This document shows, one piece after another, positions 176 through 59,690 of a stretch of 64,000 nucleotides of DNA. Under the pieces are notes generated by a model. The model was given only the letters and a program-made list of their open reading frames with translations, was not told the origin of the DNA and did not search any database. Source of the DNA: Pseudomonadota bacterium (lineage in GTDB: Bacteria > Desulfobacterota > JAPLJL01); NCBI GenBank assembly GCA_026388655.1, contig JAPLJI010000057.1:3604-67603 (forward strand), given 5' to 3'. Each line of letters opens with the position of its first letter. Positions within the stretch are counted from its first letter, which is position 1. Made by a program: the position numbers and the translations under genes.

Positions 176-328
176 TTATCTGGTCTACCTGGTCTATCTG
201 GTCTGTCATTTTAATTGACGAATGACGATTTTAGATTGACGATTCAATTTTTTTGCATTCGTCAATCGTCATTTCTTATGATTTCTTTGGTTTTCACTCC
301 GCAATCCGCAATCTACAATCCGCAATCG

Positions 329-1318: not shown

Positions 1319-1501
1319 CTGGTAAGTTTATAAATTATCGGGCGATTCTCAAACTTGACCAGGCGAGAAACGCGGGAAAAGTCCTTCGGCTTCGCTTCCC
1401 TCGACCCCGAACGGGTCTTCGGGACTAGAACCCCGGAGGGGCAGGATAAATGGTACAGGTGGGACACGCAGGATATAAAAGAAAAAATGAAGCCGAGCGA
1501 T

Positions 1502-7170: not shown

Positions 7171-7330
7171 TTTCAGGTTTATGGTTTCGAGTTAAAGGAC
7201 GGAAAGCATAAACTGAAAAAAAGGGTTGAGGGTTCGGAGAAAAATTTACGGTTTTGCTTTTGAGGTCGTGGGTTTCTGGCCTCCCCTTCTGAGTTTCTGA
7301 ACCCGAAACCCGAAACTCGAAACTTCAAAC
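7171..7330. repeat. MITE-like element with (GTTTCGAGTT)-type terminal inverted repeats in the tatD-metG spacer
   Basis: tttcaggtttatggtttcgagtt at the left end and gagtttctgaacccgaaacccgaaactcgaaac at the right end are mutually inverted. No ORF lies within. Confidence 0.6.
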
Positions 7331-10883: not shown

Positions 10884-11198
10884 ATTTCGGGTTTCGGGTT
10901 TCGAGTTTAAATCAATCATATTTTCCTGATCACCTGCTGCCCTGATATCCACTCCCTGATTCCCTGGTTACCTGATTTCCTTCGTTTCCCGTTTATCGTT
11001 TCTCGCAAGGCTGAAGCCTTGCCCTCTCCGAGCCGTAGGCTCTTCCGAGCCGGAGGCTACGTTCTGGTTAATCTGGTTTATTGAGTTTCTTTGGTTTAAC
11101 CCGAAACCAGAAACTAGAGACCCGAAACTTTCTTTATATATTCCGCAATCCCTCCGGGCCGGAGGCCGCAATCTGCAATCCGCAATTCATTTTGTTTT
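10884..11198. repeat. Composite repeat block containing (TTTCGGG)n inverted arms, a CCTGAT-type repeat, GCTGAAGCC hairpins and a CCGCAATCC box
   Basis: tttcgggtttcgggtttcgagttt at 10884 pairs with cccgaaaccagaaactagagacccgaaac at 11100. ttccgcaatccctccgggccggaggccgcaatctgcaatccgcaat at 11151 matches the sequence at 901-950. Confidence 0.6.
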
Positions 11199-12587: not shown

Positions 12588-12832
12588 AAATCCCTCCTTG
12601 ATTATTCGCCCAGGTTAAAAAAATAGTTTCTCCCCCACCCGATGTCCATAACCACGAGCCGTCTAATTATAGTAATTTTCTATCTATTGCAAAATGTTTG
12701 GCCGCGTCTTGACCTCGGGTGGGGAGGGACCTCATTGGCGAAAACCTCTTTGGCCCGCAACCTAAAAATTTTCCCCCTTATTGTTATCATTAGCAACCTA
12801 ATGTACTGCGTCGAAAGTCCCTTTACATTCTT

Positions 12833-12984
12833 GTCATTCCGGGCTTGACTGAGCCTGCCCCGTATTTGATCCGGGGGAATCCAGCCTTTTAATCGGATTC
12901 CCACTGGAGTTTATCCCGCACTCTGATGCGGGATGGGAATGACCCCGCTTTTTTGCGGGCAGATAGAAGAAAGACGGGAATGAC
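12833..12984. repeat. GTCATTCC...GGAATGAC hairpin repeat element (about 112 bp core plus an extra hairpin)
   Basis: The core is about 88% identical to 59579-59690. The inverted termini gtcattccggg / cccgggaatgac match the short copies at 15940, 20202, 27407 and 35740. Confidence 0.75.
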
Positions 12985-13159
12985 GGCTTCGAAATTAATG
13001 TAACGAAGTGTTGGATGCACGACACTAAATGCGATAAGATGGGTCTACACGTTAAATCAACCCAACGCCTTCCATGGCATTAACCATGCAATCCTTGATG
13101 ATTCGAAATACCCTCAGCCCCGGTCCATTTCCGAAGATCTTCATTTCGGAATTTTACCT

Positions 13160-15136
13160 TTGTTCCATTGGCAAAAATCCATCATGAACAATTTTTTCAT
13201 GTCCGATTATAGTTATCTGCTCCTGCTGAAATCCTTTGTCACCATAATAAAAAATTCCTTCCTCGTGTCCTTTATTATCGCCTTATCGGTATCCTTGGGA
13301 AGTTACCTGTTAGAAAAACTTAAATTCAATTTCCCCTCATTATTAGAAAAGCTTGTTTGCTCGGCCGGGGTGGGCCTGGGGTTATATGCCCACCTGGTTC
13401 TCTTGATCGGGTTCCTGGGATGGTTATATCCTCAGGTTTTTTATGCAATTTTATTAATCAATTTTTTGCTATTTTATGGAAACCTTAAAAAATGGGTTCT
13501 GCAATTAAAAGAACAGAATTTGCTGGTTTTTTTCAGGTTTTCTGACTGGAAGCAGGTCTTTTTTTACGGGGGAGCGGCGGTAATTATCCTTTCTTCATTT
13601 CTGGTAAATCTTACCCCGGTTTCATTCTATGATAATCTAATTTACCACTACGGGGTTCCTAAATACTATATCGCCTCCCATCGAATCATATTCATCGAGG
13701 GAAATATTTATGCAAATTTCCCTCAAATAGCGGAAATGCTTTTTCTGCTGGGGATGATTCTGGATTCTCCCTTGACCGCCAATCTTATCCATTTTTCCCT
13801 GGGCATCTTTCTTTTGCTTACGGTTTACTCATTCAGCCGAAACCGCTGGGGCAATTCCGCCGCCAATTTCGCCATATTATTCCTGGTCATGACTCCCGGA
13901 TTAATGCAATGGATAAGCCTGCCAAACGTGGATATAGAATTCGCCTGGTTTAACCTGCTCGCCCTTTTTATTTTGCTTAAATGGTTTGATTGTCGGAGTC
14001 CGAAAATCCTGGTCCTGTCCGCGGTGTTTGCCGGGCTTTCAATCGGGGTGAAATATACCGGGCTCATTTATTCTTTGGGAATTTTTATTTTGTTGATGGC
14101 AATCGAAAATATCATCACCCGTCAGTTAAGCTCCCTTAAGTTGCTAAAAAATATTTCCATCTATTGCGGGGTCGGGTTGATTGTTTTCCTTCCTTATTTG
14201 ATCAAAAATTATCATTTCACCGGGAATCCGGTTTCCCCGGCGCTTCCTCAGGTATTCAATCCCAACGGGGATCAGACCCGTGAATACCAGGCCTTATTGC
14301 GGGACGGGAAAAACGTAACTTTCTCAAAAGATTTTCTCCATACGATTCCTCAGCTGGTAAAAACTTTCTTAAATAATACTGTTCTGGTAAAAAAATATAT
14401 CGAATTCGGATCGTTTATCGGACCCCATTTTTTAATATTCCTGCCTTTAATATTTTTTCTCCGAAGGAAATGGAAAGAAATCCGGCTCTTAATTTATTTC
14501 CTCATCCTTTACGCGGGATTTTGGATTGGCACCTTTTGGATGATTAGATTTTTATATCCGGCCATCATCGTTACCTTCATGCTCATTGGTTACGCCTTCG
14601 ATAATTTAGACAAAAAACCAGGTTATCCAAGATTACTTATGCAGGCGGTTTTTATCTTGATCTTTGCGTTAAATTTTTTCGTTTTCCTGGAAATCTTTGA
14701 TCGGACAAAATCAATAAAATTTATTTTCGAAGGGATGGATGACAAATTATATATGTCCCGGGTTCTAAGCTCTTATCCCGTAATGGAGAAAGCGAATACC
14801 GAATTGCCCCCCTCCGCGAAGATTTTATGCCTGGGGGAAACCAGAAATTTTTACCTGGATATTCAAAATATCTGCCCTTCCGTATTCAATGCCAATCCCC
14901 TGTTCAAAATCCTGAAAGAATCCAATGATGTTATAGAAATAAAGGCCGGATTAAAGCAGCTGAAAATCACCCACATCCTCTACGACCCGGATGAATTGGA
15001 ACGAATTAGCCATTTCGGTGTTTATTTCCCGCCCCGGAATGAAAATAGCAAGGCCGCGCTCTTTAACAAATTTTTGGAAGATTGTTGGCCCCCAGTTTAC
15101 GAACAAAATCGTGTTTATTTATTAGGGATTAAATAA
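13160..15136 (+). CDS. Polytopic membrane protein, probably a GT-C-fold glycosyltransferase (GT39/ArnT-like), in a sharply AT-rich insert
   Basis: 658-aa ORF with at least 12 predicted TM helices and a C-terminal soluble domain of about 150 aa. Local GC is far below the flanking DNA. The true start may be the MNNFF or MSDYS Met. Confidence 0.5.
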   Translation: MFHWQKSIMNNFFMSDYSYLLLLKSFVTIIKNSFLVSFIIALSVSLGSYLLEKLKFNFPSLLEKLVCSAGVGLGLYAHLVLLIGFLGWLYPQVFYAILLINFLLFYGNLKKWVLQLKEQNLLVFFRFSDWKQVFFYGGAAVIILSSFLVNLTPVSFYDNLIYHYGVPKYYIASHRIIFIEGNIYANFPQIAEMLFLLGMILDSPLTANLIHFSLGIFLLLTVYSFSRNRWGNSAANFAILFLVMTPGLMQWISLPNVDIEFAWFNLLALFILLKWFDCRSPKILVLSAVFAGLSIGVKYTGLIYSLGIFILLMAIENIITRQLSSLKLLKNISIYCGVGLIVFLPYLIKNYHFTGNPVSPALPQVFNPNGDQTREYQALLRDGKNVTFSKDFLHTIPQLVKTFLNNTVLVKKYIEFGSFIGPHFLIFLPLIFFLRRKWKEIRLLIYFLILYAGFWIGTFWMIRFLYPAIIVTFMLIGYAFDNLDKKPGYPRLLMQAVFILIFALNFFVFLEIFDRTKSIKFIFEGMDDKLYMSRVLSSYPVMEKANTELPPSAKILCLGETRNFYLDIQNICPSVFNANPLFKILKESNDVIEIKAGLKQLKITHILYDPDELERISHFGVYFPPRNENSKAALFNKFLEDCWPPVYEQNRVYLLGIK

Positions 15137-15167
15137 GGCCACGACAAAAATTTAAAAGAATCCTGTT

Positions 15168-15824
15168 CTAACGGGTCAGGTTGGAGGAGAGCGTTTGGCT
15201 CGCTATTTTGACCACCTGCCGGTATACCTCTTTCACCGGTAAAGCAGCGTTGATTACTTTTACCCGTTTTTTCTCAGCCCGGGCGATCCGGAGGTAGCCC
15301 GCGCGGACCTTACGGTGGAAATCGAGTTTCTCCCGCTCAAACCGGTCGAGCGTCTTCTTCGCTTTCCGGATCCGCCGGAATCCCTCGGCGGGGTCCAAAT
15401 CGAAAAGCAGGGTCAGGTCCGGTTGAACCCGAAGCGGAAGGAACTTGAGGAGCCGGCGGATTTTTTCCATCCCGAGGCCCCGCCCCGCCCCCTGGTAGGC
15501 CAGCGTGGCGTCCTCGTAACGGTCGCAGAGCACGATCTTCCCGGCGGCGCGGGCGGGAATGATCACCTCGGCCAGGAGCTGCTGGCGGCTCGCCAGGTAG
15601 AGCAAGAGTTCGACCCGGGGATCGATCCGGCCGGCGTTGGCCGGGTCCAACAGCAATTTGCGGATGGCTTCGCCGAGCCTGGTTCCGCCCGGCTCGCGGG
15701 TGACCAGGACCTTAAGACCCCGGCTGGAAAGATAATCCGCGAGGAGACGGGTCTGGGTGGATTTTCCGCATCCCTCTATTCCTTCAAAAGTAATGAATCG
15801 GCCCGGTACTTTTTTCAAAGTCAT
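15168..15824 (-). CDS. tmk: Thymidylate kinase
   Basis: P-loop FITFEGIEGCGKSTQ and a DRY-like LCDRY lid motif. The start is set at MTLKK because the upstream extension of the ORF runs into a hairpin repeat. Confidence 0.85.
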   Translation of the reverse strand: MTLKKVPGRFITFEGIEGCGKSTQTRLLADYLSSRGLKVLVTREPGGTRLGEAIRKLLLDPANAGRIDPRVELLLYLASRQQLLAEVIIPARAAGKIVLCDRYEDATLAYQGAGRGLGMEKIRRLLKFLPLRVQPDLTLLFDLDPAEGFRRIRKAKKTLDRFEREKLDFHRKVRAGYLRIARAEKKRVKVINAALPVKEVYRQVVKIASQTLSSNLTR

Positions 15825-15983
15825 TGTTCTTTTCCGTTTATCTCTAACCACATATTTAACAAGATAGGTAGCCGCAACCTTTAGGTTGCGCCATTTTCGC
15901 AGGCTGAAGCCTGCGGCTACCACTGAAAAATTTAACCCTGGATTCCTGCTTTCGCAGGAATGACACCCAAAAAACCTAAACTG

Positions 15984-19895: not shown

Positions 19896-20275
19896 TGCCT
19901 ATCCACCCCTTTTTTCTGATCAATTAATTTTATCTTCGTTGGGGTTTTTTGACTAACTATCTTCCTATAACTTTTAGGCTTCTTAAACTCTTAGGCTTCT
20001 TAACTCTATTTAATATATAGTAGAAATCCCCGGGCGGGTCAAAAAGCGTCTAGGATAAAGCAATGAATAAAGTAAAATATAACCTACATGGGATAAATCA
20101 AAATAATTTTTGTCCAATTTAATATGGCAGTTATTAATTACTCGCATAATCAGGTTGCTGCGTTGCGGAGTTTACACTGAACAAAGTGAATGTGCTCCCT
20201 CGGAATGACGATAGGACGTGTCATTGCGAGCCCGAGTCCGACGAGGGCGCGGCAATCTTGAAACCAAATCTAAAA

Positions 20276-23526: not shown

Positions 23527-23624
23527 TAAAACATTTTCCCGCCTGCCCGGAAGGAAATTATCGGTTATAATAATTATATAGTTTGGTGGTTGTTCGTTGT
23601 GCCCACATAACCTCGTCAATAAAT

Positions 23625-23930
23625 ATGAATAAATTTGGAATTGCCCTCCCCGTAGAACAAATAAAATCTTTCTGCCAAAAGTGGAAAGTAAAGGAATTCT
23701 CACTCTTCGGCTCCGTACTTCGTCCCGATTTCAATCCCGAAAGCGACGTGGATGTTCTAGTGGTCTTTGCCGAAAATGCTGGCTGGGATCTCTGGGACAT
23801 CATCGAGATGCGGGATGAGCTGAAAACCATTTTTGGCCGGGAAGTGGATCTGGTGGAAAAACGCGCCCTGCGGAATCCTTTCCGGAAGCATGAAATCCTT
23901 CAGACCCACGAGATCGTCTATGCCTCCTGA
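23625..23930 (+). CDS. mntA: MntA-type nucleotidyltransferase antitoxin
   Basis: FGSVLRPD...SDVDVLVVF is the minimal nucleotidyltransferase (GS-x9-DxD) signature. The ORF extends upstream to 23583. Its stop overlaps the start of the next gene. Confidence 0.75.
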   Translation: MNKFGIALPVEQIKSFCQKWKVKEFSLFGSVLRPDFNPESDVDVLVVFAENAGWDLWDIIEMRDELKTIFGREVDLVEKRALRNPFRKHEILQTHEIVYAS

Positions 23931-24285
23931 AAAACGCGACCCAGCTCTCCTGTGGGACATCCTTAACACCGCCAAAAAGACGATCAAATCCATCGAAGGG
24001 CTTGAACTCAAGGATTACTTGGCGGATGAGAACCTCAGACTGACGGTTGAACGCCGGATCGAAATTATCGGGGAAGCCGCCCGGCGAACCAGCGAAGCAT
24101 TCCGGAACAGCCATCCCGAGATCCCTTGGAAATCAATGATCGGCCAGCGCAACGTGATGGCCCACGAGTATGACGAGATTGATCACGAGCGGGTATACAA
24201 TCTTGTCAAGCAACACCTGCCAGCATTGGTCAGCCTTCTGGAACCGCTCGTCCCTCCTCCTCCACCGGAAGAAAAAGTCTCCTAA
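23920..24285 (+). CDS. hepT: HepT-type HEPN toxin (DUF86)
   Basis: Contains RNVMAHEY, an R-x4-H-x-Y HEPN motif. ATGCCTCCTGA overlap with mntA. The long ORF from 23833 is probably an upstream extension. Confidence 0.75.
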   Translation: MPPEKRDPALLWDILNTAKKTIKSIEGLELKDYLADENLRLTVERRIEIIGEAARRTSEAFRNSHPEIPWKSMIGQRNVMAHEYDEIDHERVYNLVKQHLPALVSLLEPLVPPPPPEEKVS

Positions 24286-24589
24286 CGATTTCTCGGATTT
24301 CCCAACCTCATCGTAATAAATATACGTTCTGCCCTCCGCCTGCAGGGGGTAATAAACCCAACCCCAAGGTAGGTTTAGATCAAGATTATTAAAAAGCGCC
24401 AAATATTGGGGAGTCTTTCAAGGTAAACCCCTATTTACCCTATACCTTGAGAGTTCTTCCCTCGATCCCGAAGGTCTCGGGACTGAAGGGAGGGACGAAA
24501 ACCCCGGAGGGATGGGAAAAGAACCCAAATGGGCAGGATAAAAACCTCTACGAGCCCCCGTCTCGAATTTTATGAGATTGTCTGAGTAT

Positions 24590-24961
24590 TTAGCGAAAAA
24601 CCTTTAAAAGAAAGAGATTCAATCTTCTCAATTTATCTTTACTTGCATGCCGAAGCAAAGAAATGATATTTATCATAACTTCTTCTTTTTCCTTTTCATT
24701 TGGCAGAAGATCGAATGAGAAAAGTTCCCCAAGTTTAACCCCAAGAACACTGGCAAGATTATCCATTGTTTTCAAGGTAACATTTATCTGGCCCCTCTCT
24801 ATCGCCCCATAATATTTAGGATTAATCCCGCCTCGTTCAGCCACTTCCTCTTGAGTTAAACCTTTGGCTTTTCTTATTGATCTCAGCCTTTCCCCAAAAG
24901 CCTTATAAATATTTACCAAATCCCACCTCCTGGTTTTTATAGTAGGAGGTTGGATTAACAA
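24590..24961 (-). CDS. XRE-family helix-turn-helix transcriptional regulator
   Basis: LRSIRKAKGLTQEEVAERGGINPKYYGAIERGQINVTLKTMDNLASVLGV is a classic HTH_3 domain. It is divergent from the two downstream plus-strand genes. Confidence 0.75.
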   Translation of the reverse strand: MLIQPPTIKTRRWDLVNIYKAFGERLRSIRKAKGLTQEEVAERGGINPKYYGAIERGQINVTLKTMDNLASVLGVKLGELFSFDLLPNEKEKEEVMINIISLLRHASKDKLRRLNLFLLKVFR

Positions 24962-25229
24962 GCAAAACCATATTATAAATAGGATTGTTTGTTGATTATC
25001 CTATTTATATATGGTATTTATAATTTCATAGAAGGGCATGACCGGTTATTTCTTTAACTTCGTGGGTAATAAAAGGTTTTATTTTAATTCCAATGAATGA
25101 TAAATGGCGAAAAGGAATCATAAACTTAGATGATTCAAAATCAATTTACTTAAGAGCCCCTCCTTGTTTTGGGTAGGGGAAGTTACTTTTTAAAAAAATA
25201 AATATAAATACCAATAAGGGGGGCACAAA

Positions 25230-25628
25230 ATGTTCAAAAGGTTGAGTTTGATTTGCGGTTCGATTCTTTTTTCATTATTGATTGGTTGCGCGGTTAATGG
25301 AACTATTCCAAAAAATTATTACATTAGCACGGGGACTTTAACTACACCGGATTATCAATTGAGAGAATCGGTAAGTGGACAAAGTTGCTCCGGTTTTTAT
25401 CTTTGGGGTTTTAAAGGTGGGAAAATTGGCAGCGTTCAGGAAGCGATAGAAAATGCAATAAAAAATAATCCGAGGTTACGGGAACAAGGTGATGGAATTG
25501 TGATGTATAAGGAGAAAACCAGTCTTACTGCTTACGCTTTTTTATGTCTCTTAACTTATGGATTGGTTTGCCCAAATGTTAATTGTGTTAATGTTCAAGG
25601 AACTATGGTAAAGAAATTCGAAAAGTAG
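25230..25628 (+). CDS. Small predicted lipoprotein of unknown function
   Basis: Signal peptide with lipobox LLIGC. AT-rich. It lies between the XRE regulator and the HEPN-like gene. Confidence 0.5.
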   Translation: MFKRLSLICGSILFSLLIGCAVNGTIPKNYYISTGTLTTPDYQLRESVSGQSCSGFYLWGFKGGKIGSVQEAIENAIKNNPRLREQGDGIVMYKEKTSLTAYAFLCLLTYGLVCPNVNCVNVQGTMVKKFEK

Positions 25629-25714
25629 TTTTGTTTGAAATAAGTTCGCAGTCCTCATCCTTTTCGGGGGTGTAGTAGTGGCCCTCAACGACCGCCCCAC
25701 AGGGAAGAATTATC

Positions 25715-26569
25715 ATGAGCGACCTGATTTTTGAAATAACGAATTTTTCTTTTTTCGAGCAACTGGAATTCGGGAGAATAAGAGTAATTCCTAAAAACGA
25801 TGCAGAAAATTATTTAAAAGAATTAAAGGAAAAAGCAAATCGAAGTGGTTTTTTTCTGCCGCCAGATAATACGCCTACGCATGAAGTCACAATTGGGCCA
25901 TCTTCATGCCGGGAATCAAATCAAGATATGGAGTTTGTTTGCTGGTTACTTTCCTTCTTCAGTAAGCGATTGGTTCTCGGCTGGGATAGGGTTTATCATA
26001 ATCCGACAAATGTTGTTAATAAATGCTTAATTCCAAATAAGTCAAATTTGGAGAAAGTCTTAAAGCATTTTCTTGAAAGGTATGACTGCGCATATTATAG
26101 GAAGGTTCGGAGTAAGTATTTCAAATTTAATCCAAAAGAAGAATTTGAAGAACAGGCAATATTAAGAGCTATCCTGTATCAGCATGTTAGGCAGTATGAT
26201 TATTGGAGTAAGGACTGGATCCATGCCGCAATCGCATTTATGGAACATGACAACTTAAAAATGGTATTAGCAAATCATTCTGGCGATTACGAATTAGATG
26301 GCAAAAAACTTTTCAATAAATATGGACTTTATCAACCCAAAAAAGCCAATGAATTTCGCGATCTAAGAAATGAATTTTTCCATCGGGGAACATTTTATGG
26401 GGTTCTGTTTGATTTAAATGGAAACATTAAAAGTAATGACTTAATGAAAGAGATGACCCACCTTCGAGCACTTAACCAGCGTTTAGTATGCTTGGCTTTT
26501 GATTATGAGAATAAATTTACCAAAACCCCTTGGGACGATCGAGCAACTCACCCATTTGACATCATTTAA
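25715..26569 (+). CDS. Uncharacterised 284-aa protein with a C-terminal R-x4-H motif; candidate HEPN-domain Abi2/AbiD-like abortive-infection effector
   Basis: FRDLRNEFFHRG (R218-x4-H223) resembles the phi-RNxxxH HEPN signature. Low GC, no TM helices. Sits in an island with another HEPN toxin and an XRE regulator. Confidence 0.4.
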   Translation: MSDLIFEITNFSFFEQLEFGRIRVIPKNDAENYLKELKEKANRSGFFLPPDNTPTHEVTIGPSSCRESNQDMEFVCWLLSFFSKRLVLGWDRVYHNPTNVVNKCLIPNKSNLEKVLKHFLERYDCAYYRKVRSKYFKFNPKEEFEEQAILRAILYQHVRQYDYWSKDWIHAAIAFMEHDNLKMVLANHSGDYELDGKKLFNKYGLYQPKKANEFRDLRNEFFHRGTFYGVLFDLNGNIKSNDLMKEMTHLRALNQRLVCLAFDYENKFTKTPWDDRATHPFDII

Positions 26570-26882
26570 TTTCATCTGTCGCGGAAATTCGAGGGTCATC
26601 TAATGAATCTCCCTGCGGCAGAGACCGCAGGGTATCTGGGAAGGAAGCCTTCATCCCCGTGGCAAGACCACGGGGAATTCGGCAAAATCCTTGGTTAAAA
26701 GTCGCCCTAAAAAAGCTGCTTCTCTTTTCTAAAGATAAAATTTTTATTTTAATTCTCAATCTCGGTAAGAAAGAAATTTAGTTCTGGATTTTCCGCTTCT
26801 CAATTTATTTTCACCCTCCCCCTACTTCGCTAATCCATCCTTCGCTAAAGCTTCGGAGGACAGGAGCTTCGAAGGGCAGGCC

Positions 26883-26925
26883 ATCGTCCCCTCCCATCAA
26901 GGGAGGGGACGATGATTTTTATTAA
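26883..26925 (+). terminator. Perfect GC-rich hairpin followed by a T-run (catcgtcccctccc-atcaa-gggaggggacgatg-atttttatt)
   Basis: 14-bp perfect stem and a U-tract, lying downstream of the 25715-26569 gene. Confidence 0.5.
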
Positions 26926-26957
26926 CAATAACTTCCTGCCCACCCGTTAAAACAAGC

Positions 26958-26993
26958 AGTCTACTCTAAAGTAGACTACTCCAAAGTAGACTA
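26958..26993. repeat. Tandem palindromic site agtctactctaaagtagact / actccaaagtagacta
   Basis: 7-bp inverted repeat arms AGTCTAC...GTAGACT, with the GTAGACTA half-site repeated 16 bp later. Lies in ORF-free AT-rich DNA. Confidence 0.5.
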
Positions 26994-27406
26994 AACTTTC
27001 ATTGGTTATGATGAACCTGATTTCCTCATTTCTTGGCGGCGAGAATACCGGCGACTTGCGGGCGAAGTTCTTTCTCAAACTATTACCATAATGAAGAAAA
27101 TAACTATGTTTTATTATATTTTCTATGGCAAATGTTCGTGTAAGTCAAACAATTTCCATTTGTAATCTAATCGATAGTACAATGAAAAAACACTCTTTAG
27201 TGAATTACCCCGCTCTTACGGGCAAGGCATCACGGACAATCGTTACGTTTTAGCTTTTGTTAAAATGCTGGTAGGGGCCGATGCCCCCATCGGCCCACAT
27301 AATTGGTGCGTTCGGGGAACGCACCCTACAAAAAACCGTTGCAATGAAGCTCCCCGCGGCAAGACCGCGGGGTATCTAAATCAAAAAGACTCTTATGTTG
27401 TCTATC

Positions 27407-27474
27407 GTCATTCCTGCGGAAGCAGGAATCCAGAAAAACAAAAAAACTAGATTCCGCATCAAGTGCGGAATGAC
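27407..27474. repeat. GTCATTCC-hairpin repeat (short copy)
   Basis: gtcattcctgcggaagcaggaatccag ... gattccgcatcaagtgcggaatgac. Confidence 0.7.
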
Positions 27475-27601
27475 GGAATAAGGCAACCCTGTGGCAAGAC
27501 CACGGGGAATGGCAAGTTCATCCCCGCCCTTGACGGGGTTTTCGTATTTAACTATGAACGTTGAACCGTGAATCTTTAACCGGCCTATTTACAAAAACGA
27601 A

Positions 27602-30600
27602 TTATTTGTCCTGCCCCATTTCCTTGAGGACCTGGCGGAGTTCGTTCCAGTGCCGCTTGCTCTCCAGGCGGGAAAGGAGGGTCATGGCGCAGGGGACCAC
27701 GAAGAGGGTGAGGAGGGTGGAGACCAGCACACCCCCGATCACCGCGATCGCCATCGGGATCCGGATCTCCGCACCCGGGCCCAGGGCCAGGGCCGGCGGG
27801 ATGGCCGCGGCGATGGTGGCGATCGAGGTCATTAAAATCGGGCGGAGCCGGATCGGGCAGGCGTCCAGCAGGGCCTCCCGGAGCTCCATCCCCTGCTCGC
27901 GGCGCTTGTTGGTGAAATCCACCAGGAGGATGGAATTCTTTTTCACGATCCCCATGAGCAGGATCAGCCCGATCATGCTGTAAATATTGAGCGAGCGGCC
28001 AGCCAGATAGAGGGCGATGAACGCCCCCGAGACGCTGAAGGGCAGGGCCAGGAGCACGGTGACGGGATGGACAAAGCTCTTGAACTGGGAGCCCAGAACC
28101 ATGTACGCCACCACGATTCCCAGGATGAGGGCGAAAATCAGGCTCTGAAACGATTCGGTGAAGGTCTGCGCGCTTCCGGCCAGGACGGTCCGGTAGCCCT
28201 CCGGAAGCACCTGCTTGCCGATTTTTTCGACCGTGGCGATGGCCTCGGCCTGGGATTTCCCGGGAGCGATATTCGCCGTGATCCGTACGGCCCGCTCGCG
28301 GTTCCGGCGCGTGATCGACACCACCGTGGGCTTCTCGACCACCTTCACCACCTCGGAGAGACGCAGGAGTTCCCCGCGGTTGTTCCGGATCCAGATCCGG
28401 CCGATATCCTTGGTCTTGTTTCTTTCCTCCGAGGCCAGCCGAACCCGGATATCGTAACGGCGTTCCCCCTCGGTGTACTGGCCTACCCGGACCCCGCCGA
28501 TCAGTGAATTGATCGACCGGGCCACCGTGGCCACGTCCACCCCGTGTTCCCCGCAGGCCTCCCGGTCCGGGAGCACCCGGATCTCGGGCGCGCCGATCAC
28601 ATAGTCGGTATCGATATCAACCATCAGGCCGGAAACCTCCATCTGCTTCATGATCTCCCGGGAAAACCCCACCAGTCTGTCCCAGTCCGGGCCCCGCACG
28701 GTGAACTCGATCGGGAACCCGCGCATGGAGGCGAAACCCGACATCGAGGGATCCTGGATCACTACCTTGCGCAAGCCCTGGATCTTATTCAGGCCGGCGC
28801 GCCAGACCCCCATCAGCTCCTGCTGGGTCAGAGGGGCCTTCCGGGGAGGAACCACGGGCCGCTCCTTGAAGGGGTAAAGGGTCACGAACATCATCCCCGT
28901 GTTCACATCCCCGCCGCCCATGCCCCCGATGTCGCCGAAATAACGGAGCACCTCCGGACGGTGCGAGAGATAATCCTCAATCTGTTTTAAGGCGGCATCG
29001 GTATAGGCCAGGGAGGAGCCCGGCGGGGCCTGGAAACGGATGAGGAGGATACCCTGGTCCTGGGGCGGGATAAACTCCTTTTTCAGGCGGGGTAGAAATT
29101 GATAATAGGACGCGAAGAAAAAGGCCGCCGCCCCGAGAAGCACCAGCCACCGGTATTCCAACGCCCCGGAAAGGGCGTAACGGTAACCCTTCCGGAGGGC
29201 GTCCATCCCGCGGTCCACCCCCCGCCCGAGAAACGTCCGCCGTCCGACCTTCAGGAATTGGGAGGTTCGCATTGGGGTCAGGGTCAGGGCCTCGAGCAGC
29301 GAGAGCAACACCGCGACCGACATCGTCACCCCAAACTGGAAGAAATACTTTCCGATAATCCCGGACATGAAAGCCACCGGGACGAAGATGGCCAGCACCG
29401 CGATCGAGGTGGCGATCGCGGCGAAGGTGATCTCGTTGGCCCCGGTCATGGCCGCCTTGATCCGGCTCAACCCCTTTTCCCGGTAACGGCTGATGTTTTC
29501 GAGCATCATGATCGCGTCGTCGACTACGATCCCCACCGCCAGGGTCAGCCCCAGGATGGTAAAGGTGTTCAGGGTAAATCCGAGAAAATAAATGACAATG
29601 AAGGAACCGATGATCGAGGTGGGAATGGCCAGGAGGATGTTGATCGTGGCCGTCCAGGAGCCCAGGAAAAACCAGCAGACCAGGGAGGTCAGGAGCGCGG
29701 ACAGGATCAGGGTGAAATTCATCTCCCCGACCGCCTCCTCGGTGAACTTGGTGGTATCGAAATTCAGGGCCAGTTCCATCCCCGCGGGCAGTTCCTTCTG
29801 GACCTCGGCCATGCGCTTCTTGACCTCGTGGGCCACCGCCACCGCGTTGGAACCCCGCTGCTTACGGATACCCAACCCGACCGCGGTATCGCCCATGGTC
29901 CGGGAGAGGCGGCGGATATCGGCCAGGCCTTCTTCCACCCTCCCCACGTCCTTGAGCCGGAGGATCTTGAAAATCGGCCCGCCTCCGGCCCGGGCGGGGA
30001 TGATGATGTTTTCAAATTCCTTGACGTCCCCCGCCTCCCCGGTCACCCGGACGTTTCTTTCCCGCTCCGAGCCTTCGATCAGCCCGGCCGGGAGCTCCAC
30101 GTGCTGCATCTGGATCGCGTTCATCACGTCATCGACCGTGATCTCGAGCCGCTCCATCTTCTTCGCGTCGAGCCAGACCCGCAGGTTCGGATCCGTGAAT
30201 CCTCCCAGGAAGACCTCGCCGACGCCGGAAATGGTCTGGAATTTGTCCTTCAGGTGATCGCGGGTGTATTCCATCAGCTCCCGGAGGGACTTTTTCCCCC
30301 GGAGCGAGAGCCAGAGGATGGGCTGGTCCTCGGGGTTGGACTTATGATATTCGACCGGGTCCATCTCCCGCGGGAGATCCCGCGCAATCTGGGCCAGGCG
30401 GGCCTGGATCTCCTGGAGGGCCACATCAATGTTCTTGCTCAGGACGAACTCCACCGAGATCGAGGCCCGGCCGTACCTCGCCGAGGAGGAAACCTCCTTG
30501 ACCCCCTCGATCCCCATGATCGCCTCTTCCATCTGATCCACGATCTCGGTTTCCATCACCTCCGGGGCGGCTCCCTGCATCAGGGCGGAGATACCGATGA

Positions 30601-34441: not shown

Positions 34442-34520
34442 AAAATATCCCCCTTGAACCCTTGAACCCTTGAACCCTAAACTTAAAACTTGGAACCCTA
34501 TTTTTGATTGGAGGTGATTT

Positions 34521-35702: not shown

Positions 35703-35739
35703 ATGACGATTGACGATTGCGGAATTTGGTTTTTACGCT

Positions 35740-35872
35740 GTCATTCCCGCGAAAGCGGGAATCCAGACCCTTTTCGTCATCCCCGCGAAGGCGGGGATCC
35801 AGAAGCAGAGGATGGATTCCCCCGGATCAAGTCCGGGGCAGGCTTGGTCAAGCCCGGAATGACAAACACTCG
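35740..35872. repeat. Cluster of three GTCATTCC-family hairpins (reverse orientation relative to the 12833 copy)
   Basis: gtcattcccgcgaaagcgggaatccag; gtcatccccgcgaaggcggggatccag; ggattcccccggatcaagtccggggcaggcttggtcaagcccggaatgac. Confidence 0.7.
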
Positions 35873-35951: not shown

Positions 35952-36347
35952 ATGAAGAAAAGAACCTATACTGAAGCACACGCCCGCGCCGGGCTTTCCG
36001 AAAAGCTGCCCGCGATCGAGTGTTTTGAAAACCAGTTCCCGGGCTACGAGATCACGATCGAGATCCCGGAATTCACCTCGATCTGCCCCCGCACCGGCCT
36101 CCCCGACTTCGGAATGATCACGATCGTTTACACCCCCGGGAAACTTTGCCTCGAGCTCAAGTCGCTCAAGGAATACATCCTCGCCTACCGCGACCTGGGG
36201 ATCTTCAACGAAAACGCCGTGAACCGGATTTTAAAGGACGTGGTCCGCGCCTGCCGTCCCGTCCGGGCCGCGGTCCGGGGCGAGTTCAACCCCCGGGGCG
36301 GGATCGGCCTCGTCGCCGAGGCCCGCCATCCCCGCCAGAAAAACTGA
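35952..36347 (+). CDS. queF: NADPH-dependent 7-cyano-7-deazaguanine reductase
   Basis: 131-aa unimodular QueF with the catalytic Cys (TSICPRTGLPDFG) and the ELKSLKEY QueF motif. Confidence 0.85.
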   Translation: MKKRTYTEAHARAGLSEKLPAIECFENQFPGYEITIEIPEFTSICPRTGLPDFGMITIVYTPGKLCLELKSLKEYILAYRDLGIFNENAVNRILKDVVRACRPVRAAVRGEFNPRGGIGLVAEARHPRQKN

Positions 36348-39618: not shown

Positions 39619-39820
39619 CTCGCCTCCGATCTGGTCTGTCTTGTCTATTTAGTCTATCTGGTTCATTTAGTCTGTTTAGTCTGTTTGGTTTATCTGGTTT
39701 ATCTGGTTTATCTGGTTTCTCCGGTTTCTTTGGTTAACTGATACCCTGATGCCCTGATATCCATCTCCTGATTCCCTGATTGCCTGATTTCCTGTTTTCT
39801 CTTTCTAGCCACCTAACCAC

Positions 39821-43058: not shown

Positions 43059-43082
43059 ATTTCAACCCTTGAACCCTGAACC

Positions 43083-44537
43083 TTGAACCTTGGTAAAAAA
43101 ATGGAGAAGGAAGAGATTAAGAAACGGTTGGAGGAGATCGCGGGCAAGGAATGGGTGAGAGACGATGCCGCCACCCTTTTCCTTTATTCGCGGGACATGA
43201 CGGAAAACGAGCCCCACGCCCCCGACTGGGTGGTGATGCCGGAAAACCCGGGCGAGATCCAGGCGGTGATGCGCCTGGCCAACGAAACCCTGACGCCGGT
43301 CACCCCCTACGTGAGCGGCGCTAATGTCGGGGGCCTGACCATCCCGGTCAAGGGCGGGATCATCCTCGACCTGAAACGGATGAACCGGATCCTGGAAATC
43401 AACGAAAGCGACATGTACGCCTTGGTGGAGCCGGGGGTCACCTTCGGCCATCTCCGGGCCGACCTGGACCGCAATCACCCGAAGCTGATCTACACCTACC
43501 CGATGGCCCCGCCCTTCACCTCGGTGACCTGCAACGCCCTGCTCGACGGCCTCTGCAACCTTTCCCACCCGCACGGCGCCACCTCCGACTGGATCAATTC
43601 CCTCGAGGTGGTCCTTCCCTCCGGGGAGCTCGCCCGGATCGGCTCGGCCGCCATCTCCGGCCGGTGGGTCAGCCGGGTTCCCCTCCCGGACCTGGCCGGC
43701 TTATTCATCGGCTGGCAGGGTCTCACGGGCATCGTTACCAAGATCGCTGTCCAGCTCTGCCCCAAGCCCGCCTTCCTGAAGCGTGCCTTCATCCTGCCCT
43801 ATTCCTACTCCACCGCCTACGAAATGATGCGGGAGCTTTCCTGGACCCGGGTCCTCGATGATATCGCCGGGCTTTCCTGGGTCGCGGGCAAAATGATGTA
43901 CGGCCGCCACGGCCCGATCACCCGGGACCCGGGCGAACCCGGTTTTATCCTGTTTGTCGAATATTCGGCCAATACCCGGTCCGAGCTCTGGTCCAAGACC
44001 ATGATCCTGAACAACCTCCTGAAAGACTTCGAGAGAAAAGGCAAAACCTTCGAGGGGCCCCTCGACATCAACGCCATCCTGCGCTTCTTCCCGGAATATG
44101 CCAAGCTGGCGAATTTCCCCACCACCCTCGACTTCCTTCTCGATTACGCCGAAAGCGGAGGTTTTTCCTGGGTCGGCTCCTACGGCCCCACCTCCAACTG
44201 GACGAGTCCTACGGAAAAGGGCTCCGCGATCATGGAAAAATACGGGTTCCCACCCCTCTTCAACTGCCGCTCGATGAAGGGCGGCCATTACGGCTCGCTC
44301 CGCTTTCTCATCCCCTTCGACAAGCGCGACCCCGAGGTGACAAAAAAGCTCCGAATCTGTCTGGAGGAGATCTGCGATCTCCTTCTTGATGAAGGATTCA
44401 TCCCCTATAAAGCCCCGAACTGGGCGGCGAAAAAAATCATCTCCCGGGCCGATCCCGGCTGGGTTAACCTGCTCAAGACCGTCAAGAACGCCCTCGACCC
44501 GAACGGAATTTTAAACCCCGGCCACTGGGGATTTTAA
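43083..44537 (+). CDS. FAD-linked oxidase (GlcD/D-lactate dehydrogenase-like; FAD_binding_4 plus C-terminal oxidase domain)
   Basis: 484-aa ORF with an FAD-binding PCMH-type domain (PENPGEIQAVMRLANE...) and a typical C-terminus ...DPNGILNPGHWGF. The start may be the downstream MEKEE Met. Confidence 0.75.
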   Translation: MNLGKKMEKEEIKKRLEEIAGKEWVRDDAATLFLYSRDMTENEPHAPDWVVMPENPGEIQAVMRLANETLTPVTPYVSGANVGGLTIPVKGGIILDLKRMNRILEINESDMYALVEPGVTFGHLRADLDRNHPKLIYTYPMAPPFTSVTCNALLDGLCNLSHPHGATSDWINSLEVVLPSGELARIGSAAISGRWVSRVPLPDLAGLFIGWQGLTGIVTKIAVQLCPKPAFLKRAFILPYSYSTAYEMMRELSWTRVLDDIAGLSWVAGKMMYGRHGPITRDPGEPGFILFVEYSANTRSELWSKTMILNNLLKDFERKGKTFEGPLDINAILRFFPEYAKLANFPTTLDFLLDYAESGGFSWVGSYGPTSNWTSPTEKGSAIMEKYGFPPLFNCRSMKGGHYGSLRFLIPFDKRDPEVTKKLRICLEEICDLLLDEGFIPYKAPNWAAKKIISRADPGWVNLLKTVKNALDPNGILNPGHWGF

Positions 44538-47807: not shown

Positions 47808-48020
47808 ATTTCGAGTTTCTGGTTTCGAGTTCCGAGTTAATAACCAAAAAGCGTAAATTTTGTTGACGCCATTAAAGTTACGAGTTTCGAGTCTCGAGTT
47901 TCGAGTTCAAGACCAAAGATAGAATAACTATCCTGTTTACTGACTCAATATTTAAATTCGCTTGTGCGGTTGATTTATTTCTTTGTTCAACCAGAAACCA
48001 GAAACTCGCAACTCGAAACT
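47808..48020. repeat. MITE-like element with (GTTTCGAGTT)n terminal inverted repeats in the spacer upstream of the CrtI-like gene
   Basis: tttcgagtttctggtttcgagttccgagtt at the left, gagtttcgagtctcgagtttcgagtt internally, and aaccagaaaccagaaactcgcaactcgaaac at the right. Confidence 0.6.
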
Positions 48021-58036: not shown

Positions 58037-58657
58037 ATGAACGTCTGCGAAATCTTCCCCACCATCCTCGGTGAATCCTCCCGGAGCGGTTACCCGGTCG
58101 TCCTGGTCCGCCTGGCCGGCTGCAATCTCCGCTGCCGCTACTGCGACACCGCCTACGCCTACTCCGGCGGGCAGGAACTGCCCCTCCCGGAAATCGCCGG
58201 GCAAATCCGAGGTTTGGGAATTTCCCTGGTTTTAATCACCGGCGGGGAACCTCTGCTCCAGGCGGAAACCCCGGCGCTGATCGAAGCCCTCCTGGATTCC
58301 GGCTTCACCATCCTGGTCGAAACCAACGGCTCGCTTCCCATCTCCACGATTGACCCCCGGGCCGTAATCATCCTCGACCAGAAATGCCCGGGCAGCGGGA
58401 TGTCCGACCGGATGGATCCGGCCAACCTCGACCTGATTCGTCCTCACGATGAAATCAAGTTCGTCCTTTATGACTCCGACGATTACAGCTTCGCCCGGGA
58501 CCTGGTTTCGAAAAAAAACCTGGCTCGGCGGTCCCAGGTTATTTTCTCGCCGGTTCACGGATTTCTTCCCCCCCAGACCCTGGCGGAGTGGATTCTCCGA
58601 GACCGTCTTCCGGTTAGATTGGGTATTCAACTTCACCACCATATTAGGGTAAAATAG
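58037..58657 (+). CDS. queE: 7-carboxy-7-deazaguanine synthase (radical SAM)
   Basis: CNLRCRYCDT cluster motif in a ~200-aa QueE-type protein. Confidence 0.8.
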   Translation: MNVCEIFPTILGESSRSGYPVVLVRLAGCNLRCRYCDTAYAYSGGQELPLPEIAGQIRGLGISLVLITGGEPLLQAETPALIEALLDSGFTILVETNGSLPISTIDPRAVIILDQKCPGSGMSDRMDPANLDLIRPHDEIKFVLYDSDDYSFARDLVSKKNLARRSQVIFSPVHGFLPPQTLAEWILRDRLPVRLGIQLHHHIRVK

Positions 58658-59578: not shown

Positions 59579-59690
59579 GTTATTCCAGGCTTGACCATGC
59601 CTGCCCCGTATTTGATCTGGGTGAATCCAGTCTATTTTTCTGGATTCCCGTTAGAGTTTATCCCGCACTCTGATGCGGGACGGGAATGAC
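59579..59690. repeat. GTCATTCC...GGAATGAC hairpin repeat element (long copy)
   Basis: About 88% identical to 12833-12943 over ~112 bp. Confidence 0.75.

What the first reader, a model, noticed from the sequence alone, without database searches (positions are those of the whole stretch)
12833..12984. GTCATTCC...GGAATGAC hairpin repeat family, including two ~112-bp copies 47 kb apart
Copies at 12833-12943 and 59579-59690 are about 88% identical over their full length, including an internal GGATTCCC-N-TTATCCCGCACTCTGATGCGGGA hairpin. Shorter members with the same termini lie at 15940-15964, 20202-20230, 27407-27474 and 35740-35872 (three tandem hairpins, opposite orientation). Several copies create spurious start-codon extensions of the adjacent genes tmk and the O-antigen ligase, so they sit in 5' UTR or promoter positions and could affect expression or serve as transcription attenuators.
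Basis: seen in the sequence. Interest (0 to 1): 0.5.

Follow-up and report, generated by a model that had tools for sequence, protein, structure and literature searches.

The report
NTS/dRS3-type (Ssn-related) hairpin repeats
The repeats are real and belong to a known family of small intergenic DNA hairpins (Neisseria NTS/dRS3, "Ssn-related motifs"), which in other bacteria a tiny GIY-YIG nuclease cuts in single-stranded DNA; here they occur in an uncultivated bacterium, partly as unusual long-loop versions.

Summary
The two 112-bp copies are 86% identical (96/112). A third partial copy and several shorter units lie in six intergenic regions. GTCATTCC occurs 10 times against 2.7 expected.

The basic unit matches the Neisseria Transformation Sequence with one mismatch: GTC, 8-bp stem, 4-nt loop, stem, CCAG. 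That sequence contains dRS3 and is the target of the ssDNA nuclease SsnA (Chenal 2025).

The "GTCATTCC...GGAATGAC termini" are the 5' ends of two units facing each other. The 112-bp element is therefore a doublet of two long-loop units, not a transposon with inverted ends.

No Ssn gene, RAYT or other transposase was found in the window. In other contigs carrying the same unit, a 97-aa GIY-YIG gene sits directly beside the units.

Relatives show both conservation and turnover. One unit is identical in three related genomes, yet near-identical strains carry a different doublet at that site. Two sites border low-GC islands missing from relatives.

Unit positions relative to genes are inconsistent, so a dedicated attenuator or promoter role is unsupported.

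One surprise: the long-loop unit carries a 24-nt module that elsewhere is a clean insertion into the loops of unrelated hairpin repeats.

Verdict: new member of a known kind.

The parts
12833..12885 (+). Long-loop unit 'long1-A': GTC-ATTCC ... GGAAT-CCAG. It encloses a GGCT/AGCC hairpin and a diverged copy of the 24-nt module (12852-12875).
12892..12943 (-). Long-loop unit 'long2-A': GTC-ATTCCCA ... TGGGAAT-CC, enclosing the hairpin TCCCGCA-TCAGAG-TGCGGGA. With long1-A it forms the 112-bp convergent doublet.
12944..12984 (-). Truncated unit. It keeps the 5' half (GTCATTCCCG...) but has no 3' arm, and it abuts long2-A.
15938..15964 (-). Short unit GTCATTCCTGCGAAAGCAGGAATCCAG. It lies 20 nt after the stop of the AIR-synthase-like gene and upstream of tmk. 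It is identical at the same site in two related genomes.
20160..20209 (-). Degenerate or truncated unit. Only the 5' end, GTCATTCC (20202-20209), is recognisable.
20220..20260 (+). GTCATTGC ... GCAATC variant unit with an inner GCCC/GGGC hairpin. It lies inside the spurious 5' extension of the O-antigen-ligase ORF.
27407..27433 (+). Short unit GTCATTCCTGCGGAAGCAGGAATCCAG, the left half of a convergent doublet.
27447..27474 (-). Short unit with a different but fully paired stem: GTCATTCCGCA-CTTGA-TGCGGAATCTAG. It is the only unit followed by a T-run, 131 nt past the acrB stop.
35740..35766 (+). Short unit. With the preceding base (35739-35766) it matches the 28-nt NTS consensus with one mismatch, and it contains an exact dRS3 (ATTCCC-N8-GGGAAT).
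35776..35802 (+). Short unit GTCATCCCCGCGAAGGCGGGGATCCAG (compensated T>C / A>G stem variant). It matches the published SRM search pattern.
35811..35863 (-). Long-loop unit 'long1-C', the canonical form, with an intact 24-nt module at 35821-35844.
59579..59631 (+). Long-loop unit 'long1-B'. It is decayed: GTT instead of GTC, and GTGAATCC instead of GGGAATCC. The module lies at 59598-59621.
59640..59690 (-). Long-loop unit 'long2-B'. With long1-B it forms the second 112-bp doublet.

Best explanation
The repeats are oriented DNA hairpin units of the NTS/dRS3 type, also called 'Ssn-related motifs' (SRM).

**Anatomy (shown)**
- A unit reads GTC, then an 8-bp stem (ATTCCNGC), a 4-5-nt loop, the complementary arm, and CCAG.
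- The window holds five short units, five long-loop units of 40-53 nt that keep the same stem base and flanks, and three truncated or decayed ones.
- Units usually sit as convergent pairs or arrays. A pair therefore begins with GTCATTCC and ends with GGAATGAC. The 112-bp 'copies' are such pairs (long1 facing long2).

**Mechanism (inferred by family membership)**
- When the DNA is single-stranded, each unit folds. A small single-domain GIY-YIG nuclease (Ssn), encoded elsewhere in the genome, binds it and nicks that strand a few bases upstream. This could occur on incoming transforming DNA, during replication, or during conjugative or phage ssDNA stages.
- The expected consequences are limits on, or re-patterning of, recombination around the flanked genes.
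- The expected long-term result is that the repeats spread and turn over in intergenic DNA, as REP/BIME and Neisseria NIME arrays do.
- Effects on neighbouring genes look incidental. Examples are spurious start codons and an occasional terminator-like context.
For: **Sequence identity to the family**
- 35739-35766 matches CGTCATTCCCGCGMAVGCGGGAATCYRG with one mismatch. Three more units match with at most 3 mismatches, and those mismatches are compensated in the stem.
- Two units match the published SRM pattern, against 0.58 expected by chance.
- An exact dRS3 lies at 35743-35762.
- BLAST hits Neisseria gonorrhoeae chromosomes directly at 92% identity, 12-13 places per record. It also hits Azospirillum, Novosphingobium and Sphingopyxis.

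**Determinants reported as critical are kept**
- The paper reports that the 3 nt before the palindrome matter for cutting, and the C after it matters for binding.
- All units keep these bases except decayed long1-B.

**The hairpin is under selection**
- The five short units carry four different stems, all 8/8 paired.
- 1262 20-mers were selected only on the unit's flanks (GTC before, CYRG after) and do not match the pattern used to fetch the contigs. Of these, 64 are 8/8 paired, against a background that peaks at 3 of 8.
- Folding z-scores are -3.3 to -6.0 for 7 of the 8 stretches folded; the 20199-20262 stretch gives only -2.0.

**Partner gene**
- In contigs fetched only for carrying the unit or the long1 core, six have a roughly 97-aa ORF immediately flanked by units. 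The four tested are single-domain PF01541 GIY-YIG proteins.
- One of these is in the Ramlibacter locus L126, which also carries a long1-type unit.

**Long loops are plausibly tolerated**
- SsnA still cuts when the two stem halves are on separate oligos with no loop.

**Dynamics fit a recombination-linked repeat**
- The thiL-tmk unit is 27/27 identical in the window, in MAG STA_72 and in L259, while the genes around it are about 87% identical at nucleotide level over the aligned stretches. Strains 99% identical to the window carry a different doublet there.
- The 4.1-kb low-GC island ending in the 27407-27474 doublet is replaced by 66 nt in a 98%-identical strain. Element A together with a 40%-GC glycosyltransferase gene is absent from STA_72.
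- All six sites are intergenic.
Against: - No Ssn or other GIY-YIG ORF exists in the 64-kb window. None was found in the related contigs examined either: about 78 kb of L131 and L252-L259 and five 8-kb STA_72 loci, L121, L122, L127, L129 and L130.
- The source genome could not be retrieved, so the presence of the nuclease in this organism is untested.
- The published SRM pattern catches only 2 of the 13 units. The long-loop units have only 5-8 bp of outer stem, and nobody has shown that an Ssn cuts such units.
- The biological role of Ssn outside Neisseria is unknown.
- Nothing here shows that this organism is naturally transformable.
Confidence: 0.72

Rival explanations
1. REP/REPIN elements mobilised by a RAYT (IS200/IS605-type Y1 transposase).
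For: The general look is the same: short GC-rich palindromes with a conserved 5' tail, confined to intergenic DNA, often as inverted doublets and mosaics. The Ssn paper itself draws the analogy.
Against: - The sequence is that of NTS/SRM, whose associated gene across genomes is the GIY-YIG ssnA.
- In the loci fetched here, the ORFs flanked by units are GIY-YIG proteins.
- None of the 44 window ORFs scanned has a transposase domain.
- The conserved 5' tail is GTC, not the GTAG-type REP tetranucleotide.
Confidence: 0.07
2. RNA-level regulatory hairpins acting on the adjacent genes, as attenuators, terminators or mRNA stabilisers.
For: - Units lie in untranslated intergenic DNA near gene ends.
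- 27451-27471 (minus strand) is followed by CTAGTTTTTT, 131 nt after the acrB stop. A weak case exists at 59617-59630.
- The thiL-tmk unit is perfectly conserved between species.
Against: - Positions and orientations are inconsistent: two divergent, one convergent and three tandem contexts, on both strands.
- 11 of 13 units lack a T-run, and terminator-like hits do not exceed shuffles.
- No Rfam family matches.
- The same sequence recurs next to unrelated genes in unrelated bacteria and phage-like contigs.
- SsnA acts on ssDNA and not on RNA.
Confidence: 0.1
3. Miniature inverted-repeat transposable elements: the 112-bp copies would be deletion derivatives of an insertion sequence with GTCATTCC terminal inverted repeats.
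For: There are two 112-bp copies with inverted termini, 47 kb apart and 86% identical. The composite arrays recur at non-orthologous sites in the related MAG STA_72 at 87-94% identity.
Against: - No target-site duplication flanks any copy.
- The 'termini' also occur singly, as complete 27-nt units.
- The composites are modular: the same units appear in different combinations and with different spacers.
- No IS with such ends was seen.
Confidence: 0.05
4. [quoted passage not shown] This is compatible with the best explanation rather than exclusive of it.
For: - The literature reports that dRS3 is the integration site of Nf phages.
- Two of the six sites border low-GC islands that are absent from relatives.
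- A recombinational patch replaces the thiL-tmk unit in near-identical strains.
Against: - No integrase or IS110-type gene lies in either island or elsewhere in the ORFs scanned.
- The island junctions show no duplicated unit on the far side.
Confidence: 0.06

Closest known systems
NTS / Ssn-related motifs (SRM) with the GIY-YIG ssDNA nuclease SsnA (Chenal et al., Nat Commun 2025, PMC11893778)
   Same: - The 28-nt sequence is the same, with one mismatch.
- The directional flanks (GTC before the palindrome, C after it) and the hairpin are the same.
- The units are confined to intergenic DNA, cluster near variable genes, and have a wide taxonomic spread.
- In other contigs the same unit flanks a 97-aa GIY-YIG gene.
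   Different: - The host is an uncultivated lineage. Its RF1 is only about 59% identical to any named taxon.
- No ssnA gene lies in the 64 kb.
- Five of the 13 units are long-loop forms of 40-53 nt with nested hairpins, which the published SRM pattern (loop of 0-5 nt) does not capture.
- Cleavage has not been tested.
dRS3 / neisserial intergenic mosaic elements (NIME) (Bentley 2007, PMC1797815, citing the first description)
   Same: - The ATTCCC-N8-GGGAAT core is present.
- Arrays of units are separated by short spacers.
- The sites associate with strain-variable regions.
   Different: - Arrays here are short (2-3 units) and mostly convergent pairs.
- The 50-150-bp RS families are not seen.
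- NIMEs were described as specific to Neisseria, and this host is not a Neisseria.
REP / BIME / REPIN with RAYT transposases (E. coli, Pseudomonas)
   Same: The architecture and lifestyle match: a conserved tail plus a hairpin, inverted doublets, mosaics, an ssDNA-hairpin-recognising enzyme encoded in trans, and a gene flanked by its own repeats.
   Different: The enzyme superfamily differs (GIY-YIG against HUH/Y1), and so does the sequence motif. No RAYT was found here.
Correia elements and other bacterial MITEs
   Same: The size is similar (about 110-150 bp), as are the inverted ends, the intergenic location and the potential to create start codons or terminators.
   Different: There is no target-site duplication and no fixed internal sequence. 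The ends are autonomous 27-nt units that also occur alone.

Membership tests
NTS / SRM (Ssn-related motif) | Match to the NTS consensus CGTCATTCCCGCGMAVGCGGGAATCYRG (the paper allows 1 mismatch) | tested here: met
   35739-35766 has 1 mismatch. 15938-15965, 27406-27433 and 35775-35802 have at most 3, compensated in the stem. There is a direct 92% BLAST match to N. gonorrhoeae.
NTS / SRM (Ssn-related motif) | Match to the degenerate SRM pattern HGTCWYN(0-2)YYVSBRHN(0-5)WNVSBRGN(0-2)RNCYNB | tested here: inconclusive
   Two units match, against 0.58 +/- 0.68 in shuffles with a maximum of 2. The other short units and all long-loop units fall outside the pattern as written.
NTS / SRM (Ssn-related motif) | Hairpin with orientation-giving flanks: conserved bases 5' of the palindrome (cutting) and a C immediately 3' of it (binding) | tested here: met
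   GTC precedes and C follows the palindrome in every complete unit except decayed long1-B. Stems are fully paired despite sequence differences.
NTS / SRM (Ssn-related motif) | Multi-copy, intergenic, clustered distribution in the genome | tested here: met
   There are 13 units or fragments at 6 sites in 64 kb, all intergenic in 85%-coding DNA. Related MAG STA_72 carries long1 arrays on 5 further contigs. Genome-wide counts were not obtainable.
NTS / SRM (Ssn-related motif) | A cd10448-type single-domain GIY-YIG gene (ssnA) in the same genome, typically flanked by units | not testable with these tools
   None is present in the window, in the related contigs L131 and L252-L259, or in the five STA_72 loci. 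The source genome could not be retrieved. In other contigs with the same unit, six such ORFs are flanked by units.
NTS / SRM (Ssn-related motif) | Strand-specific binding and cleavage by Ssn on ssDNA only | not testable with these tools
   This needs biochemistry.
dRS3 / NIME | 20-bp ATTCCC-N8-GGGAAT repeats flanking families of 50-150-bp RS elements, in arrays | tested here: not met
   There is one exact dRS3, and the other units have variant stems. Spacers are 9-13 nt, and no RS families were seen.
REP / RAYT | REPs flank a Y1 (HUH) transposase gene, and the conserved 5' tetranucleotide is of GTAG type | tested here: not met
   None of the 44 window ORFs scanned has a transposase domain. The flanked gene in other loci is GIY-YIG. 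The 5' tail is GTC.
MITE | Terminal inverted repeats plus target-site duplication, with a fixed internal sequence | tested here: not met
   There are no direct repeats at the borders. The composition is modular.
Intrinsic terminator / attenuator | GC-rich stem followed by a U-tract, in a fixed orientation downstream of or within a transcription unit | tested here: not met
   Only 1 unit clearly fits and 1 fits weakly. Counts are not above shuffles, and units occur in both orientations and all gene contexts.

The most novel reading that the evidence does not exclude
The long1 unit is a composite. It is an NTS-type stem carrying in its loop a separate 24-nt hairpin module, [A/T]GCCTGCCCCGGACTTGATCCGGG.

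**What supports an independent, loop-seeking mini-element**
- There it sits at the apex of unrelated long hairpin repeats.
- Within single contigs, the same outer repeat exists with and without the module. The difference is a clean 24-nt gap at AA^GTGG, with no target duplication (L169, L192).
- 72 of 130 copies are enclosed by at least 10 bp of outer helix, against 35 of 130 when the 3' flank is shuffled.
- No recurrent neighbouring gene, no Ssn gene, no Rfam family and no paper containing the sequence was found.

**The reading**
The module would be an undescribed kind of tiny element that inserts into hairpin loops and is moved in trans by an unknown enzyme. That enzyme might be an Ssn-like nuclease of different specificity, because the module's CCGG-N-CTTGA-N-CCGG core resembles an SRM hairpin.
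Probability: 0.3. Interest if true: 0.65.

Novelty: new member of a known kind. Interest (0 to 1): 0.35.

Why it matters
- **For annotation:** these units explain spurious N-terminal extensions. They may also contribute to short-read assembly breaks: Logan contig L131 ends about 63 nt after the stop of the CoA-transferase gene, which I place inside the first unit of the 35.7-kb array.
- **For biology:** the finding extends the NTS/Ssn system, so far studied in Neisseria and a few Pseudomonadati, to a deep, uncultivated lineage.
- **Evolution of the units:** the same sites can be frozen across species yet swapped between near-identical strains and sit at island borders. That is the behaviour expected of recombination-modulating repeats.
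- **Testable substrates:** the long-loop units are natural substrates for testing how much of the hairpin an Ssn nuclease needs. This matters for the proposed use of Ssn enzymes as programmable ssDNA cutters.
- **Follow-up lead:** the 24-nt loop module is a separate lead that may be worth following in cultured Rhizobiales-like soil bacteria.

Tried and rejected
- **Rfam:** the whole window at gathering thresholds, and two repeat regions at E <= 1, gave nothing relevant. The only hit was a 20-bit FtrB match at E = 0.43.
- **Source genome:** exact-protein look-ups found only 2.6-2.9-kb contigs or nothing. The genome-contig scan did not contain the window itself.
- **Ssn gene in the window:** a GIY-YIG regex and an HMM built from six Ssn-like ORFs found no hit, even with --max at E <= 10.
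- **Long-loop cores in viral contigs:** none.
- **Neighbour-gene clustering:** around the short unit in IMG/VR contigs, phage structural genes dominate, which reflects the collection rather than the repeat. Around the 24-nt module in metagenome contigs, no recurrent family appeared.
- **Plasmid BLAST of a soil-type filled repeat:** one uninformative hit.
- **'Same modules in different phyla':** I first read the shared long1/long2 arrays this way. That reading weakened once STA_72 proved to be a syntenic relative of the window organism. The Fibrobacterota and 'Proteobacteria' hits are 2.5-kb MAG contigs that may be mis-binned. Only the Ramlibacter copies, which have a compensated ATTGC/GCAAT outer stem, are clearly from another lineage.
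- **Strand bias:** GC skew is negative throughout and units occur on both strands, so there is no replication-strand bias to report.

Full report
**1. The observation**

The sequences are as described. The two long copies, 12833-12943 and 59579-59690, align globally with 96 of 112 identical columns (86%). The score is 79, against -14 +/- 4.7 for shuffled partners. GTCATTCC and its complement occur 10 times, against 2.7 +/- 1.5 expected.

The repeat finder and an alignment show a third copy of the left half on the minus strand at 35811-35863. A profile search of the window finds no further complete copies.

The full inventory with exact coordinates is:
- five short units of 27-28 nt: 15938-15964(-), 27407-27433(+), 27447-27474(-), 35740-35766(+), 35776-35802(+);
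- three 'long1' units of 53 nt: 12833-12885(+), 35811-35863(-), 59579-59631(+);
- two 'long2' units of 51-52 nt: 12892-12943(-), 59640-59690(-);
- one GTCATTGC variant: 20220-20260(+);
- two truncated units: 12944-12984(-), 20160-20209(-).

All six sites are intergenic in DNA that is about 85% coding.

**2. Anatomy**

A short unit reads GTC, an 8-bp stem, a 4-5-nt loop, the complementary arm, then CCAG. An example is GTC-ATTCCCGC-GAAA-GCGGGAAT-CCAG.

The five short units carry four different stems: ATTCCCGC, ATTCCTGC (twice), ATCCCCGC and ATTCCGCA. Every one is perfectly paired, so the differences are compensated.

The long units keep the same GTC, the same outer stem (5-8 bp) and the same 3' CC, but they enclose 30-35 nt that forms its own hairpins.

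Units mostly stand as convergent pairs, with the GTC ends outward. This is why a pair starts with GTCATTCC and ends with GGAATGAC. The 112-bp 'element' is long1 facing long2. The 27407-27474 element is two short units. The 35740-35863 array is two forward short units facing one long1.

As single strands, the composite stretches fold well below shuffled controls, with z from -3.3 to -6.0. The exception is the 20199-20262 stretch, with z = -2.0.

**3. What family it is**

A literature search for the sequence led to Chenal et al. 2025 (PMC11893778). That paper makes these points:
- The Neisseria Transformation Sequence (NTS) is CGTCATTCCCGCGMAVGCGGGAATCYRG. It encloses the classical dRS3 repeat ATTCCC-N8-GGGAAT.
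- NTS-like 'Ssn-related motifs' (SRM) occur in many bacteria.
- The motifs are associated with a small single-domain GIY-YIG gene, ssnA (cd10448), which is often itself flanked by the motif.
- SsnA binds the hairpin and cuts upstream of it, only in single-stranded DNA and only on one strand.
- In N. meningitidis this lowers the integration of NTS-bearing transforming DNA.

The window compares as follows:
- 35739-35766 matches the NTS with one mismatch. Three more units match with at most 3 mismatches.
- An exact dRS3 lies at 35743-35762.
- The published degenerate SRM pattern matches two units, against 0.58 expected.
- BLAST against annotated records hits N. gonorrhoeae chromosomes (92% identity, 12-13 places per record), Azospirillum, Novosphingobium and Sphingopyxis.
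- The bases the paper found critical are kept in every complete unit except the decayed 59579 copy. Those bases are the three before the palindrome (cutting) and the C after it (binding).

Across all fetched DNA, I selected 20-mers only on the unit's flanks (GTC before, CYRG after). They show a bimodal pairing distribution: the background peaks at 3 of 8 pairs, with a spike at 8 of 8. The spike holds 243 sequences, 64 of which do not match the fetch pattern, and they carry many stem variants. The hairpin, not just the sequence, is therefore maintained.

**4. The partner gene**

The window has no GIY-YIG ORF. None of the 44 ORFs scanned against Pfam has a transposase or integrase domain. They are ordinary chromosomal genes: prmC, prfA, rho, metG, holB, tmk, lon, acrB, queC, queE, queF and others.

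Among the 130 loci fetched only because they carry the unit or the long1 core, six encode a roughly 97-aa ORF immediately flanked by units. The upstream reading frames even translate the repeat ('SFPRKRESS', 'WIPAFAGMT'). The four tested are single-domain PF01541 GIY-YIG proteins.

One of them (L126, Ramlibacter) lies 1.5 kb from a long1-type unit. That locus also holds three short units of the matching stem type.

Whether the window's own genome encodes an Ssn could not be tested, because the source genome was not retrievable.

**5. Lineage and dynamics**

RF1 and a CoA-transferase have no named relative above about 59-65% identity.

The tmk neighbourhood gave syntenic relatives:
- contigs L252-L257, with a 99%-identical Tmk protein (L252 is 97-99.5% identical to the window at nucleotide level);
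- L259, at 86% protein identity;
- L258, a contig of MAG 'bacterium STA_72' (GCA_028713675.1), at 81% protein identity and 79-90% nucleotide identity over 15 kb.

STA_72 is also the genome in which the long1 core was found on five further contigs. Its arrays have the same order of units as the window's, with different spacers. The 35.7-kb array is 87-94% identical to arrays at non-orthologous STA_72 sites.

Three comparisons are informative:
- **The thiL-tmk unit.** It is 27/27 identical in the window, STA_72 and L259. The near-identical strains L252-L257 carry instead a patch of about 150 nt holding a convergent doublet. Its first unit differs from the window's by a compensated T>C / A>G pair.
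- **The 23.5-27.6-kb island.** Window 23527-27607 is a 34-47%-GC island. It ends in a 1-kb mosaic of hairpins that includes the 27407-27474 doublet. In L252 it is replaced by 66 unrelated nt.
- **Element A and its neighbour.** Window 12649-15257 holds element A plus a 40%-GC PMT_2-type glycosyltransferase gene. In STA_72 it is replaced by about 100 nt.

Units are therefore both long-lived and focal points of replacement. This is what was inferred for dRS3/NIME arrays in Neisseria.

**6. Mechanism and rivals**

The best-supported reading is that these are cis-acting ssDNA hairpin sites for an Ssn-type nuclease encoded in trans.
- **Shown:** sequence identity to the family, conserved determinants, structural maintenance, gene association in other genomes, intergenic confinement and turnover.
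- **Inferred:** that this organism has the nuclease, that long-loop units are substrates, and what the cellular consequence is.

The substrate inference is plausible because SsnA still cuts when the stem halves are on separate oligos with no loop.

- Contexts are two divergent, one convergent and three tandem, and units lie on both strands.
- Only 27451-27471(-) has a T-run, and 59617-59630 is a weak case.
- Terminator-like and promoter-like hits are at shuffle level.

The RAYT idea fails on the associated gene family. The MITE idea fails on the absence of target duplications and on modularity.

**7. Start-codon claims**

The O-antigen-ligase ORF from GTG 20186 does run through two units, and the likely start is ATG 20276. 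The ATG inside GGAATGAC at 59686 opens a 173-aa ORF, which I judge spurious; this was not tested.

For tmk the frame is open across the hairpin, but there is no start codon upstream of it. The longest ORF begins at 15923, beyond the hairpin, so the extension is not made by the repeat.

**8. An unexpected by-product**

In 121 of 130 occurrences the free positions read G, C, C. This gives AGCCTG followed by the hairpin CCCCGGA-CTTGA-TCCGGGG.

Only the window lineage and Ramlibacter have the core inside an NTS-type stem. Elsewhere it sits at the apex of quite different long hairpin repeats.

Within single contigs the same outer repeat exists with and without it. The difference is a clean 24-nt gap at AA^GTGG (L169, L192).

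I found no associated gene, no Rfam family and no paper containing the sequence. Long1 is therefore best described as an NTS-type unit carrying this module. What moves the module is unknown.

**9. Verdict**

The attenuator role and the RAYT link are not supported.

The thing itself is a new member of a known kind, namely NTS/dRS3-type Ssn-related motifs. It has long-loop variants that the published pattern does not capture. Interest is modest. The 24-nt loop module is the only part that might be new in kind.

Noticed in passing
window 12852-12875, 35821-35844 (-), 59598-59621; L169 582-667 vs 2772-2833; L192 114-196 vs 1110-1168: A 24-nt module, [A/T]GCCTGCCCCGGACTTGATCCGGG, sits in the loop of the long1 units. 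In soil metagenome contigs it appears as a clean 24-nt insertion (AA^GTGG, no target duplication) at the apex of unrelated hairpin repeats. Filled and empty copies occur on the same contig. No partner gene, Rfam family or paper was found.
   Followed up: partly
window 23527-27607: A 4.1-kb low-GC (34-47%) island holds a nucleotidyltransferase/HEPN-like pair (23583-24285), an XRE-type regulator (24590-24961) and hypothetical genes (functions read from the ORF translations, not scanned against Pfam). In strain contig L252, which is 96.9-98.1% identical on the flanking stretches, it is replaced by 66 unrelated nt. Its right end is a 1-kb mosaic of hairpin repeats.
   Followed up: partly
window 12649-15257: Element A plus a 40%-GC PMT_2-type glycosyltransferase gene (13160-15136) is absent from the syntenic contig of MAG STA_72 (L258), where tmk is followed directly by the CoA-ligase-like gene. 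This looks like an acquired cell-surface gene with the repeat at its border.
   Followed up: partly
window 26652-26678, 27349-27375, 27484-27510: A second, unrelated hairpin repeat family, CCCCGYGGCAAGACCRCGGGG, has three copies. Two of them bracket the 27407-27474 doublet.
   Followed up: no
window 298-327, 843-874, 7300-7323, 10885-10908, 34451-34478, 39634-39799, 43067-43092, 47876-47907: Many intergenic regions carry short low-complexity tandem arrays of period 7-9 (AGTTTCG, TCCGCAA, CCCTTGAA, CTGATTCC, TGGTTTATC). Similar arrays appear next to long1 units in L124 and L141. Their meaning is unknown.
   Followed up: no
window 1383-1450; L122 2073-2140: A 68-bp stretch between prmC and prfA is 90% identical to a non-syntenic place in MAG STA_72. 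This is probably another dispersed repeat of this lineage.
   Followed up: no
window 35952-36347 (queF), 58037-58657 (radical-SAM, queE-like), 58751-59470 (queC): Two of the three long1-containing elements lie next to queuosine-biosynthesis genes: upstream of queF and downstream of queC. This is probably coincidence.
   Followed up: no
L118 3045-3335, L084 7823-8134, L037 973-1263: In IMG/VR contigs the unit-flanked 97-aa GIY-YIG (Ssn-like) genes sit between recurrent conserved ORFs that look like phage portal or terminase genes (not scanned against a protein-family library), like a free-standing homing-endonuclease cassette.
   Followed up: no
L126 4710-5100 (-): Ramlibacter carries three tandem copies, of period 132 nt, of a short GTCATTGCGGGCGTGACCCGCAATCC unit with a conserved spacer. 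This is a tandemly amplified SRM array.
   Followed up: no
L131 (Logan SRR20698646 contig): A 2.6-kb contig encoding a CoA-transferase identical to the window's ends about 63 nt after that gene's stop codon. I place that end inside the first unit of the 35.7-kb array, as expected if the repeat is multi-copy and breaks short-read assemblies.
   Followed up: partly
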